Below, in pieces: positions 14,023-15,582 of a stretch of DNA of 64,000 nucleotides (position 1 is the first letter of the stretch; each line of letters starts with the position of its first letter). The DNA is from an uncultured Nitrososphaerota archaeon (GTDB taxonomy: Archaea; Thermoproteota; Nitrososphaeria; Nitrososphaerales; CADDZS01). Both the position numbers and the translations under genes were made by a program. The DNA is taken from positions 1,408,001-1,472,000 of the forward strand of contig CAWCYI010000006.1 of the NCBI GenBank assembly GCA_963799845.1, in the 5' to 3' direction. The notes under the pieces are model-generated. The model was not told the origin of the DNA. It saw only the letters and a program-made list of their open reading frames with translations, and made no database searches.

Positions 14023-14178
14023 CTAGATTCGCTTGATCATTCCGTCCATTTGCTCTTCGGTTATCGTCATACCCGGATGAGCATCGGCGGCGTGCATCGA
14101 GGCGTGTTTCTTCACATCGGCATCGCCCGCGGGAGAGACAAGAGTCCAGCCGCAGTCACATGAGACCATCGAAGCCAT
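14023..14178 (-). CDS. Small metal-binding protein (DUF1059-like)
   Basis: CDCGW…HASMHAADAH…MIK. Confidence 0.7.
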   Translation of the reverse strand: MASMVSCDCGWTLVSPAGDADVKKHASMHAADAHPGMTITEEQMDGMIKRI

Positions 14179-14302
14179 TGCTGCCAGTCGAAATCTTGGG
14201 AGAGACAGATAAGCCTTTGCCAACATTCGTTCGCTGTTCCGTTCAAGGGACCAGATCAGTGCAATAGGCCTTGCGGAAGCTTCAGGACAAAATCGGTGAC
14301 GA

Positions 14303-14534
14303 TGGTGCCGGGGACGGGATTCGATCCCGCGACCCCCAGATCTCTTATCGCTTTCGAAGGATTATGAGTCACACCCTCTTACACTGGCGCGAACTTCATC
14401 TATTCGAATCACCGGTATGAGGGTTTTAGCCCTTTATTTTCTCGTGATCCTCAGAGGCTGGTGCTCTAACCAGGCTGAGCTATCGGGACGATAACATTCC
14501 TCGTCAGAATGTATTTCCGCATCGCCACCCCGGC
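14303..14534 (-). tRNA. tRNA-Met(CAT), elongator type, with three introns (8/9: 14482-14526; 30/31: 14370-14457; 37/38: 14342-14362)
   Basis: Spliced sequence GCCGGGG TA GCTC AGCCTGGTTA GAGC A CCAGA CTCATAA TCTGG GGGTC GCGGG ATCGAAT CCCGT CCCCGGC ACCA folds as a cloverleaf; each junction has a BHB motif; CCA is encoded. Confidence 0.93.
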
Positions 14535-14606
14535 CTTGAGGCCCCCGGCATTTTGGGCATTCCTCTTCTCGGCGTTAATAAGCGTGGCGAGGTACAAGCT
14601 ACGCTG

Positions 14607-15582
14607 TTACGGTGCGGACAAAGCCCTGCCGCAATTGTGACAGAATCTTTCGTCCTGCGAAACAGGCGTTCCGCAGGAAGGACAGAAGTTATTTCTCTGG
14701 GGAGTTAACTGTCCAAAATATCCCATCGGCTGCGGCTTCATGTTATCATACAGAGACGGAGGTCTCGGCATAGATCGAACCTGCGACTGACTGTAGGAAG
14801 AATACAAAACCACCATCGATGCCGACACCAGTGGAAATTCTAGCGCGAGAATAAAATTCTGGGCCGCGTTGACAGCAAGCATCGAGGTTGAATCAGATAG
14901 TGGCAGAAGGCCGACTATGGAACTAATCAACAGAGCAACGATGTAAATGATAATTTGAATTCCGATAACTAGGAGGAAGGTCTTCCCCCACTTGCCAGAG
15001 ATCAAATTCCTGCTTCTCCCGAACGCAGCTGAGGGGAGACTTGTCTTCGATTACCGACGCGGCCAAACTGAGATAAAGCAATGTTCCAAAAACCAGCGGT
15101 CCAACAATCAAAATGATGCTGGCTTCAACTATCACGACCGCAAGAAAAGTCGTTACTGCAAGGTTGACAAGATTTATTCGATTTGTCGAAGTGAAAGTTA
15201 TTTTTTGGTTTTTGCCGAACGATTGACAGATTTTCCAAACGCCGATCCCAGCCGCGAAGTAAAGAATGAACCAAGTGACAAGAAAGTTAGCAGCCGTATA
15301 TTCCAGGTACATGAAAACCGAACTCATCGCATCCAGAAGCTGCGTCTGGGTCAACGTTGCTACATTCGAGGGAATAGTGTAGGATGGGGTCACGTAGGAA
15401 ATGTATGTCGAAACTATCGCGACTAAAACACCAAAACCCGCAAAGACCGGAAGCAGCTGAAGATAATTTTTCCTCGCGAGATCGAACGATTTGCTGAAAG
15501 ATTCGCCAAGCGAAAGCTCGCGGGAGTACTCTCCCTGATCGGGGGGCTCACCGGTCATGCGAAAATCATCTCTAGTTTCCAA
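14607..15582 (-). CDS. Multi-pass membrane protein with C-terminal zinc ribbon (frameshift in a C4 run near 15035)
   Basis: Two overlapping ORFs join as …DKSPSAAFGRSRNLISGKWGK…; ends with CPSCG…FCHNCG. Confidence 0.75.

What the first reader, a model, noticed from the sequence alone, without database searches (positions are those of the whole stretch)
14303..14534. tRNA-Met with three introns, including one at the very unusual 8/9 position, and a 7-nt exon
Seen: 154 of 232 nt are intronic. Intron 1 (45 nt, 8/9) forms a strict BHB: GC-CGGG-GT^G-GCGAT…ATCGT-CCCG-AT^A-GC, using the acceptor 5' strand as the central helix. Intron 2 (88 nt, 30/31) is also strict: GAG-CACC-AG^C-CTCT…AGAG-GGTG-TG^A-CTC. 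Intron 3 (21 nt, 37/38) has one mismatch in its central helix. Exon 3 is only ACTCATA. Established: multi-intron tRNAs occur in Thermoproteales and some other TACK archaea; I do not recall 8/9 among reported positions. Inference: splicing is ordered, because the CTC of exon 3 is used by both BHB2 and BHB3 and BHB1 excludes the acceptor stem. Standard scanners probably miss or mis-call this gene.
Basis: partly seen in the sequence, partly recalled or inferred. Interest (0 to 1): 0.75.

Follow-up and report, generated by a model that had tools for sequence, protein, structure and literature searches.

The report
Three-intron tRNA-Met with leader decoy
This is a real methionine tRNA gene of a soil thaumarchaeon cut into four pieces by three introns, and wherever an intron sits at the odd 8/9 spot the gene also carries, just upstream, a spare copy of the tRNA's first seven bases that may help the splicing enzyme get at that intron.

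Summary
On the minus strand, window 14534-14303, four exons (8, 24, 7, 39 nt) and three introns (45, 88, 21 nt) splice in silico into a perfect tRNA-Met(CAU) cloverleaf. ARAGORN and Rfam miss the gene. The junctions form two strict BHB motifs and one relaxed one. Four same-genus genomes keep the exons and the three positions while intron bodies differ. Four metatranscriptomes hold contigs covering only the unspliced precursor, and all 21 differences lie in introns. No spliced RNA was seen.

The 8/9 position is not unique. It is fixed in this tRNA in three uncultured Nitrososphaerales families, not found in the large cultivated ones, and recurs in a tRNA-Ser(UGA) gene of this genome.

New here: 25 of 25 tRNA-Met orthologs with an 8/9 intron, and 10 of 10 tRNA-Ser orthologs, carry a copy of acceptor bases 1-7 in the 5' leader. 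Of 21 orthologs without the intron, 20 lack it. I read the copy as a stand-in partner for the acceptor 3' strand that frees the true strand to form the BHB. This is inferred, and my folding test was not specific. Strictly ordered splicing is not required.

The parts
14575..14581 (-). TATA-like box TTATTAA, 25 nt upstream of the leader copy
   Evidence: Read. The same spacing (23-29 nt, read by eye) separates a TATA-like box from the leader copy in relatives. No transcription start was measured.
14543..14549 (-). Leader copy GCCGGGG, identical to acceptor positions 1-7 and complementary to the acceptor 3' strand; proposed stand-in (decoy) strand
   Evidence: present in 25 of 25 orthologs with an 8/9 intron (21 at 7/7 identity, 4 at 6/7). 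At background level (<=4/7) in 20 of 21 orthologs without the intron. RNAfold pairs it with positions 66-72 at probability 1.0.
14535..14542 (-). Leader spacer (8 nt) between the copy and position 1
   Evidence: Spacer length and sequence vary among relatives (copy start lies 9-23 nt upstream of +1) while the copy is kept.
14527..14534 (-). Exon 1, tRNA positions 1-8
   Evidence: Invariant GCCGGGGT in all 25 orthologs.
14482..14526 (-). Intron 1, 45 nt, between positions 8 and 9; strict BHB whose central helix is acceptor 3-6 paired with CCCG of the intron
   Evidence: H 4/4, h' 6, h 3. Length is 13-59 nt in relatives, always at the same position.
14458..14481 (-). Exon 2, positions 9-30 (D arm and 5' strand of the anticodon stem)
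   Evidence: Conserved in relatives.
14370..14457 (-). Intron 2, 88 nt, between positions 30 and 31; strict BHB
   Evidence: H 4/4, h' 4, h 3. The central helix covaries among relatives (CACC:GGTG versus CGCC:GGCG). No Rfam family reaches its cut-off here.
14363..14369 (-). Exon 3, ACTCATA, positions 31-37 including anticodon CAT
14342..14362 (-). Intron 3, 21 nt, canonical 37/38 position; relaxed BHB with one C-A mismatch
   Evidence: H 3/4. Present in the four same-genus genomes whose gene reaches this far and in G008; absent from genus g2.
14303..14341 (-). Exon 4, positions 38-73 plus encoded CCA (T arm and acceptor 3' strand CCCCGGC)
14289..14292 (-). TTTT run 11 nt after the CCA, a possible terminator
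   Evidence: Read only; not tested.

Best explanation
This is a functional, elongator-type tRNA-Met(CAU) gene of an uncultured soil member of the Nitrososphaerales (Thaumarchaeota). It is transcribed as a precursor of about 250 nt. Three introns, at 8/9, 30/31 and 37/38, are cut out at bulge-helix-bulge motifs by the genome's two-subunit splicing endonuclease. The exons are then joined by RtcB, and RNase P removes a 15-nt leader.

The first seven bases of that leader repeat acceptor positions 1-7. I propose that this copy pairs with the acceptor 3' strand (66-72). That would leave the true 5' strand free to pair with the end of intron 1 and build the BHB. After splicing, the true strand would take over the acceptor stem.

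Shown: the gene structure, the motifs, conservation of exons against divergent introns, presence of an unspliced precursor in RNA libraries, presence of the enzymes, and the strict association of the leader copy with 8/9 introns in two different tRNA genes. Inferred: the splicing itself, the transcription start, and the role of the copy. I put the gene-and-splicing part at about 0.9 and the stand-in role of the copy at about 0.45.
For: Gene and motifs: in-silico splicing gives a perfect tRNA-Met(cat) cloverleaf. There are two strict BHBs and one relaxed BHB, with a chance expectation of about 2e-10.

Comparative evidence:
- G004, G001 and G006 carry the whole gene with introns at the same three positions, conserved exons and different intron lengths (I1 23-56 nt, I2 55-94 nt, I3 16-21 nt). 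G005's contig ends inside I2.
- BHB1's central helix is 4/4 in 11 of 12 distinct orthologs and 3/4 in G008.
- BHB2's helix changes on both sides: CACC:GGTG in 5 orthologs, CGCC:GGCG in 7, with CGCC:GGTG in 2.

RNA evidence: in 4 of 4 metatranscriptome runs laid (four studies), contigs of 90-97% likeness cover only 14319-14540. They run unbroken through introns and exons. All 17 substitution places and 4 indel places lie in introns, which make up 154 of the 222 nt covered.

Machinery:
- Two PF01974 endonuclease paralogs are present. The 186-aa one matches chains 3p1z_B, 2cv8_A, 3ajv_B and 2zyz_B over its full length at E 3e-37 to 2e-33. These are crenarchaeal two-subunit enzymes by my recall.
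- RtcB scores 575 bits and archaeal RNase P RNA scores 188.8 bits.

Isotype: the Nitrosopumilus orthologs are typed Met CAT at 85.8 bits by tRNAscan-SE 2.0 (supplement of PMC8450103).

Leader copy:
- It is present in 25 of 25 tRNA-Met orthologs with an 8/9 intron and at background in 20 of 21 without. Random 45-mers from the same loci reach >=6/7 in 152 of 5,000.
- It can pair 7/7 with the acceptor 3' strand in 21 of 25 and 6/7 in 4 of 25.
- In the own genome, among the 34 tRNA-like loci I kept from the 68 hits, only the two with an 8/9 intron have a 7/7 leader copy. The other 32 score <=5/7, including two other genes whose acceptor strand is also GCCGGGG.
- The second gene, tRNA-Ser(UGA), shows intron plus exact copy in 10 of 10 family members found. 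Position 7 changes together in exon, copy and 3' strand: A/A/T in genus g1 and G/G/C in g2 and g3.
- A contig titled Bathyarchaeia shows the same pair of features.
- The spacer between copy and exon varies freely while the copy is kept.
- In family f4, the copy sits where the intron-less relative G069 has exon 1, behind the same promoter sequence.
- RNAfold puts the acceptor stem at P about 1 and BHB1 at P 0 without the leader. With the leader, the copy takes the 3' strand at P 1.0.
Against: - No spliced junction, mature tRNA or circular intron was seen. The RNA contigs show only the unspliced form and no joints, and contigs cannot show absence.
- Two RNA contigs (X11, X20) end at 14540, six bases before position 1 and downstream of the copy. 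If that is the true 5' end of the transcript, the copy is not in the RNA and the stand-in idea fails.
- The folding test is not specific. The leader lowers the cost of forcing BHB1 in 24 of 25 tRNA-Met and 10 of 10 tRNA-Ser precursors. But a leader whose copy is shuffled (still G-rich) does nearly as well, with mean savings of 5.5 against 4.8 and 5.6 against 5.6 kcal/mol.
- Even with the leader, BHB1 is not in the minimum-energy fold.
- Four copies mismatch at position 7.
- G052 keeps a 6/7 copy although it has no 8/9 intron.
- The orthologs are kin, so 25 of 25 may reflect few independent events.
- The G004 ortholog has a C2-A71 mismatch.
- Met versus Ile2 identity cannot be settled from sequence here.
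Confidence: 0.8

Rival explanations
1. The leader copy is only a footprint of how the 8/9 intron arose. An insertion carrying its own copy of the 5' end, or a duplication, pushed exon 1 downstream, and the old exon 1 stayed behind the promoter. It has no role in splicing.
For: In family f4 the copy occupies exactly the place of exon 1 of the intron-less relative G069, behind the same promoter sequence. G052 has the copy without the intron, which could be an intermediate. The folding test gave no specific support for the exact copy.
Against: The copy is kept at 6-7 of 7 positions in 25 of 25 tRNA-Met and at 7/7 in 10 of 10 tRNA-Ser orthologs across several families, while the adjacent spacer changes in both length and sequence. 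In tRNA-Ser the copy has changed together with the exon and the 3' strand. A neutral relic should have decayed.
Confidence: 0.2
2. The upstream copy is the real exon 1, and the downstream GCCGGGG is intronic. A further mini-intron at 7/8 would be cut at a BHB-like hairpin formed by the palindrome CCGG in both copies, so the mature 5' end would be the transcript's own start.
For: A motif with H 4/4 (CCGG:CCGG), bulges GG^G and GG^T and a 2-bp inner helix can be drawn between the copy and exon 1. The copy lies at the distance from the TATA-like box where intron-less relatives have position 1.
Against: The base after the copy is G, C or A in 24 of 25 tRNA-Met orthologs (T only in G102), so it does not supply U8. 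Position 7 of the copy is T or A, against C66, in G043, G015 and G102. The downstream copy with its T8 is invariant in 25 of 25 and 10 of 10 orthologs, including position 7, which would be an unconstrained bulge base if it were only a guide. It would also leave a one-base exon between two introns.
Confidence: 0.06
3. The gene encodes the AUA-reading tRNA-Ile2, whose C34 is converted to agmatidine, rather than elongator tRNA-Met.
For: Both carry anticodon CAU, and sequence alone rarely separates them. No isotype-specific model could be run here.
Against: tRNAscan-SE 2.0 types the Nitrosopumilus orthologs (same exon 1 and same anticodon arm) as Met, 85.8 bits. The own genome holds another CAT-bearing tRNA-like locus with a different acceptor stem (GGGCCCG, contig C6, minus strand), which could be Ile2 or the initiator (read by eye and not analysed further).
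Confidence: 0.12
4. The locus is a decaying pseudogene whose insertions are never removed.
For: Only unspliced RNA was seen. One relative (G004) has an acceptor-stem mismatch.
Against: Exons are invariant or nearly so across genera and families while introns diverge. All 21 variable places in the RNA contigs are intronic. BHB helices are kept, in part by compensatory change. A DNA search found only one copy of this gene in the genome, which is 87% complete.
Confidence: 0.03

Closest known systems
Multi-intron tRNA genes of Thermoproteales, for example the Pyrobaculum islandicum tRNA-Pro(UGG) with introns at 25/26, 37/38 and 56/57 (described in PMC4090602, section 4, read)
   Same: Three BHB-bounded introns in one tRNA gene, one canonical and two non-canonical. 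The host has a two-subunit endonuclease. The alternative folds needed for the non-canonical sites compete with the cloverleaf.
   Different: A different phylum-level lineage (Nitrososphaerales). One intron lies at 8/9, with the acceptor 5' strand as the central helix. The leader carries a conserved copy of that strand, which I did not find described in four of the five full-text searches.
Position 3/4 introns of certain Thermoproteales tRNAs ('extreme case', Sugahara et al. 2008 as cited in PMC4090602; the original paper is not held)
   Same: An intron whose splicing motif must use acceptor-stem bases and flanking sequence.
   Different: A different position. I could not see those sequences, so I cannot say whether they also carry a leader copy.
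The Nitrosopumilus tRNA-Met(CAT) gene listed in the tRNAscan-SE 2.0 supplement (PMC8450103; strains SCM1, AR1, D3C and one further strain)
   Same: The orthologous gene, with the same exon 1, D arm and anticodon arm, and an insertion between ...CCAG and ACTCATA (30/31).
   Different: It has only that one intron (about 39 nt). There is no 8/9 intron, no 37/38 intron and no leader copy. Nitrosopumilaceae-like family f12 scored 0 of 112 for the 8/9 pattern, and its leaders are at background level.
Split tRNA halves of Nanoarchaeum equitans, whose leader and trailer pair to build the splicing motif (PMC4090602, section 4)
   Same: Sequence outside the mature tRNA is kept because it shapes the precursor for the splicing endonuclease.
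   Different: There the flanks form the motif itself and are cut off by the endonuclease. Here the leader copy would pair with the acceptor 3' strand, outside the motif, and would be removed by RNase P.
Heavily interrupted tRNA genes of Asgard archaea (bioRxiv 10.64898/2026.10.13.758758; passages read)
   Same: Most tRNA genes are interrupted, standard annotation misses many of them, and one gene can hold up to five intervening sequences.
   Different: A different phylum. That census reports few insertions at acceptor or junction positions, and the word 'leader' does not occur in its text.

Membership tests
Archaeal tRNA gene with BHB (endonuclease-spliced) introns | Removing the insertions gives a canonical cloverleaf with a sensible anticodon | tested here: met
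   ARAGORN calls the script-joined exons tRNA-Met(cat), with 7/4/5/5-bp stems.
Archaeal tRNA gene with BHB (endonuclease-spliced) introns | Each junction lies in a 3-nt bulge on either side of a 4-bp helix (strict hBHBh' or a relaxed form) | tested here: met
   I1 4/4, I2 4/4, I3 3/4, each with flanking helices. Chance expectation is about 2e-10.
Archaeal tRNA gene with BHB (endonuclease-spliced) introns | The host encodes a splicing endonuclease able to cut non-canonical sites, plus an RtcB ligase | tested here: met
   There are two PF01974 paralogs, one matching crenarchaeal endonuclease chains at E about 1e-37. RtcB scores 575 bits. The subunit roles and the broad specificity are inferred, not assayed.
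Archaeal tRNA gene with BHB (endonuclease-spliced) introns | Spliced product or excised introns seen in RNA | tested here: inconclusive
   Four RNA runs hold only unspliced contigs and no joints. Contigs cannot show absence.
Elongator tRNA-Met | Anticodon CAU, and not the initiator pattern (A1-U72, three G-C pairs at the base of the anticodon stem; pattern recalled) | tested here: met
   Anticodon CAT, pair G1-C72, anticodon stem CCAGA/TCTGG.
Elongator tRNA-Met | Distinguished from tRNA-Ile2(CAU) | tested here: inconclusive
   Rests only on the ortholog label 'Met' given by tRNAscan-SE 2.0. No isotype model was run here.
Intron-encoded box C/D sRNA (as in the tRNA-Trp introns mentioned in PMC4090602) | A match to a C/D-box family, or C and D boxes in the intron | tested here: not met
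   The best Rfam hit in the region is snoU54 at 14.5 bits against a 35-bit cut-off, E 3.5. It lies over I1/E2, not I2.

The most novel reading that the evidence does not exclude
Introns placed at 8/9 can persist only together with a cis-acting stand-in for the acceptor 5' strand in the pre-tRNA leader. The stand-in holds the acceptor 3' strand while the true strand builds the splicing motif. This would be a previously undescribed class of precursor-only tRNA element, a built-in RNA chaperone. It would explain how endonuclease-spliced introns can sit where their motif competes with the acceptor stem. It would also predict where such introns can and cannot be gained.
Probability: 0.45. Interest if true: 0.75.

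Novelty: new variant of a known kind. Interest (0 to 1): 0.62.

Why it matters
Multi-intron tRNA genes are known, so the gene itself adds a member and a position, not a principle.

The leader copy is what would matter. It offers a concrete, testable answer to an old puzzle: how a splicing motif can form when it needs bases that are locked in the very stable acceptor stem. It also gives annotators a simple flag for hidden 8/9 introns, namely a repeat of bases 1-7 just upstream.

This genome also shows how badly standard tools fail on such lineages. Only 12 tRNA hits pass the Rfam cut-off in 4.6 Mb, so completeness and codon-usage inferences from MAG tRNA counts are unreliable there.

Tried and rejected
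- Literature on position 8/9: the paper tools cannot search for a slash, so '8/9' could not be looked up. Sugahara 2008, Tocchini-Valentini 2011, Marck and Grosjean 2003 and Hallam 2006 are not held. Whether 8/9 is already listed in SPLITSdb or GtRNAdb therefore stays open.
- The tRNAscan-SE 2.0 supplement holds only the genes that differ between versions, not an intron-position table.
- The genome-contig scan stopped at its 120-locus limit, and most of its hits were bacterial tRNAs with a chance GGGGT upstream. I used only the archaeal rows.
- The spliced-alignment script placed the T-loop intron of genera g2 and g3 at 56/57 with a poor motif. Reading by eye puts it at 59/60, as in L115; this was not rechecked by script. 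The G054 row aligned poorly (28/29 and 41/42) and was dropped.
- The first version of the copy table picked wrong exon starts and wrong 3' strands in several rows. It was replaced.
- Minimum-energy folding does not predict any of the three BHBs. Forced-motif energies gave no clear splicing order, and the shuffled-copy control removed the specificity of the leader test.
- A box C/D RNA in intron 2 was considered and not supported.
- Earlier notes of this scan held nothing on this genome or this sequence. The eight notes returned for 'tRNA intron BHB' concern other kinds of introns.
- RNA runs: no joined form was found.

Full report
**What is there.** The finding lies on the minus strand. From 14534 down to 14303 the sequence divides as follows:
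- exon 1: 8 nt, GCCGGGGT
- intron 1: 45 nt
- exon 2: 24 nt
- intron 2: 88 nt
- exon 3: 7 nt, ACTCATA
- intron 3: 21 nt
- exon 4: 39 nt, ending in an encoded CCA

Joining the exons inside a script gives 78 nt, which ARAGORN folds into a complete cloverleaf and calls tRNA-Met(cat). On the unspliced DNA, ARAGORN finds no tRNA anywhere in the window. Rfam finds nothing at gathering thresholds, and its tRNA model reaches 14.2 bits against a cut-off of 29.

**The junctions.** Each junction sits after the second base of a 3-nt bulge, and the two bulges flank a 4-bp helix.
- Intron 1 has 4 of 4 central pairs (acceptor bases 3-6 with CCCG near the intron's end), an inner helix of 6 pairs and an outer helix of 3.
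- Intron 2 has 4 of 4, with helices of 4 and 3.
- Intron 3 has 3 of 4 (one C-A mismatch), with helices of 2 and 2.

In shuffled copies of the same sequence, a strict motif occurs at 3e-4 of all possible junction pairs and a relaxed one at 2.3e-3. The three observed motifs, at junctions dictated by the cloverleaf, are therefore far beyond chance.

**Who carries it.** The window lies in a 4.6-Mb, nine-contig assembly that is 87% complete. Contigs of two same-genus genomes carry public titles reading 'Nitrososphaerales archaeon'. The best DNA holders among sequencing runs are labelled soil metagenomes. The genome holds the machinery needed:
- Two paralogs of the splicing endonuclease. The 186-aa one matches, over its full length, chains of solved endonucleases at E 3e-37 to 2e-33. 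I recall these as the catalytic subunits of crenarchaeal two-subunit enzymes. The 232-aa paralog is more distant.
- One RtcB ligase.
- An archaeal RNase P RNA.

**Relatives.** The full gene is present in same-genus genomes G004, G001 and G006. G005 has it up to a contig end inside intron 2. The introns are at the same three positions, the exons are conserved, and the intron bodies differ in length and sequence.

In the same family, genus g2 (G007, G010, G011) has introns at 8/9 and 30/31 plus one in the T loop, and lacks 37/38. G008 (genus g3) has all four. I read the T-loop site as 59/60 by eye.

Across other families of the order, a short 30/31 intron is nearly universal. Its central helix changes on both sides: CACC:GGTG in 5 orthologs, CGCC:GGCG in 7, the G-U intermediate in 2, and 3 of 4 pairs in 4 orthologs of family f4.

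G001 is marked unpublished.

**How unusual is 8/9?** A pattern search over 401 genomes of the order, allowing 9-39 nt between exon 1 and exon 2, matched 20 genomes: 15 of 15 in family f14, 2 of 9 in f4 and 3 of 12 in f1. It matched none of 112 in f12, 112 in f15, 97 in f9 or 11 in f8. Five further f1 genomes have the intron at 44-59 nt, beyond that gap limit.

The cultivated Nitrosopumilus strains listed in the tRNAscan-SE 2.0 supplement have only the 30/31 insertion in this gene. A 2014 review names many non-canonical positions, and 3/4 as the extreme, but not 8/9. Its figure is not held. The original catalogues are also not held.

So 8/9 is uncommon in what I could read. Yet it is old and fixed in three uncultured families, which is probably why reference databases built on cultivated strains would not show it.

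Neither three nor four introns is a record. tRNAscan-SE 2.0 notes that Thaumarchaeota carry multiple non-canonical introns and that archaeal genes hold up to three. A 2026 preprint reports up to five in Asgard archaea.

**RNA.** I laid four metatranscriptome runs from four studies on 14150-14700. In all four, contigs of 90-97% likeness cover only 14319-14540 and nothing outside the gene. They run without a break through intron 1, exon 2, intron 2, exon 3 and, in one run, intron 3 into exon 4.

All 17 places with substitutions and all 4 places with indels lie inside the introns as delimited above. Introns are 154 of the 222 nt covered, so this would happen by chance about 5e-4 of the time (my arithmetic).

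This shows that relatives transcribe the unspliced precursor and that their exons are under constraint. It does not show splicing: no joints were found, and contigs would not be expected to capture a 75-nt modified tRNA. Two of the contigs (X11, and X20 with an adapter directly attached) end at 14540, six bases before position 1. I cannot explain this.

**The leader copy.** The 15 nt before position 1 begin with GCCGGGG (14549-14543), an exact repeat of acceptor positions 1-7. It starts 25 nt after a TTATTAA box.

I compared 25 orthologs that have an 8/9 intron (8 from f1, 15 from f14, 2 from f4) with 21 that do not (seven families). All 25 have the repeat 9-23 nt upstream of position 1, at 7/7 identity in 21 and 6/7 in 4. 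Of the 21 without the intron, 20 score 3-4 of 7, which is background. The exception is G052, of family f4, at 6/7. Random 45-mers from the same loci reach 6/7 or more in 152 of 5,000.

The repeat can pair with the acceptor 3' strand at 7 of 7 positions in 21 of 25 orthologs and at 6 of 7 in 4. The spacer between repeat and exon differs freely in length and sequence.

In family f4, the repeat sits exactly where the intron-less relative G069 has exon 1, behind the same promoter sequence. This suggests that the repeat lies at the transcript's 5' end. A contig titled Bathyarchaeia, with a different set of other introns, also has an 8/9 intron and a 6/7 repeat at -12.

**A second, independent gene.** I scanned the whole genome for T arms followed by an acceptor 3' strand and looked upstream for the matching 5' strand. 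From the 68 hits I kept 34 by eye as tRNA-like. Only two have a 7/7 repeat in the leader: this gene and a locus on contig C4 (146870-146716, minus strand). The other 32 score 5/7 or less, and the 5' strand of their D arm directly follows position 9. They include two other genes whose acceptor strand is also GCCGGGG.

The C4 locus turned out to be a tRNA-Ser(UGA) gene with introns at 8/9 (14 nt), 29/30 (33 nt) and 37/38 (21 nt). ARAGORN calls the joined exons tRNA-Ser(tga). Neither ARAGORN nor Rfam had listed it.

Its orthologs in 10 of the 12 family genomes searched all have the 8/9 intron and an exact repeat; no ortholog was found in the other two. Position 7 has changed together in exon 1, in the repeat and in base 66. 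It is A, A, T in genus g1 and G, G, C in genera g2 and g3.

**How it most likely works.** BHB1 needs acceptor bases 3-6, yet those bases form a seven-pair G-C-rich stem with positions 66-72. RNAfold gives that stem a probability near 1 and BHB1 a probability of 0 when the precursor starts at position 1. With the leader, the repeat takes over 66-72 at probability 1.0.

I therefore propose that the repeat is a stand-in for the acceptor 5' strand. It would occupy the 3' strand, and clamp the two ends of the precursor, while the true strand folds back on intron 1 to present the motif to the endonuclease. After ligation the true strand, now continuous with the D arm, would displace the repeat, and RNase P would remove the leader.

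This accounts for several things:
- why all seven positions are conserved, not just bases 3-6
- why position 7, which is a bulge base in BHB1, covaries with base 66
- why the repeat is found only with introns whose motif consumes acceptor bases

The model's weaknesses are real. The start of transcription is inferred only. Two RNA contigs end downstream of the repeat. My energy test is not specific: forcing BHB1 costs 11.2 kcal/mol above the optimum without the leader and 5.0 with it in this gene. The leader helps in 24 of 25 and 10 of 10 precursors. But a leader with the seven bases shuffled, which is still G-rich, helps almost as much.

**Order of splicing.** In the folding model the cost of forcing BHB3 drops from 9.4 to 4.6 kcal/mol once intron 2 is removed. 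BHB1 costs 3.7-5.0 in every context and BHB2 costs 10-12 in every context.

That fits 'intron 2 before intron 3' as a tendency. It gives no reason for intron 1 to be first or last. Relaxed motifs would allow either order, and nothing here measures it.

**Verdict.** It is a new member of the known class of multi-intron archaeal tRNA genes. Its 8/9 position is rare in print but entrenched in uncultured Nitrososphaerales. The added finding, a conserved leader repeat of the acceptor strand that accompanies every 8/9 intron seen here in two different tRNAs, appears in none of the papers I could search. It gives a testable mechanism.

Noticed in passing
Own genome G000, contig C4, 146716-146898 minus strand (locus L184/L185); outside the window: A second hidden three-intron gene, tRNA-Ser(UGA), with introns at 8/9 (14 nt), 29/30 (33 nt) and 37/38 (21 nt) and a leader repeat of its acceptor strand 28 nt upstream. 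ARAGORN and Rfam both miss it. The 10 family orthologs found (of 12 family genomes searched) share both the intron and the repeat.
   Followed up: yes
L013 (G008, same family, genus g3), minus strand around locus position 1510: The orthologous tRNA-Met gene there has four insertions: 8/9 (59 nt), 30/31 (121 nt), 37/38 (26 nt) and one in the T loop (48 nt, read by eye as 59/60). That is one more than the 'up to three' stated for archaeal tRNA genes in the tRNAscan-SE 2.0 paper, though a 2026 preprint reports up to five in Asgard archaea.
   Followed up: partly
Whole genome G000: Nearly the whole tRNA set is interrupted. 33 of the 34 tRNA-like loci I kept are 90-229 nt from position 1 to the discriminator, and only one is 76 nt. 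Only 12 Rfam tRNA hits pass the cut-off in 4.6 Mb. ARAGORN's 29 calls include several doubtful isotypes and introns.
   Followed up: partly
window 14540 (minus strand, six bases before tRNA position 1): RNA contigs of two runs from different studies (X11, and X20 with an adapter attached) end at exactly this base, downstream of the leader repeat. It could be a processing site, a start site or an assembly effect.
   Followed up: no
L183/L012 (G052, family f4): This relative has the leader repeat (GCCGGGT, 6/7) and spacer but no 8/9 intron. It reflects either a precise intron loss or the state that preceded intron gain.
   Followed up: no
L041 (public contig titled uncultured Bathyarchaeia): Its tRNA-Met gene has an 18-nt 8/9 intron and a leader repeat. 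It has no 30/31 intron, and has further insertions in the variable region and the T loop. This suggests that the 8/9-plus-repeat arrangement reaches beyond one order, if the title is right.
   Followed up: no
L002 (G004, same genus): The ortholog's acceptor 3' strand reads CCCCGAC, giving a C2-A71 mismatch. This could be a variant, an assembly error or a decaying copy.
   Followed up: no
window 14607-15005, minus strand: The ORF just upstream of the tRNA gene ends in a zinc-ribbon domain (Pfam Zn_Ribbon_1, E 1e-8). The same C-terminal coding motif precedes the tRNA gene in G004, G006 and G005, so the neighbourhood is conserved within the genus.
   Followed up: no
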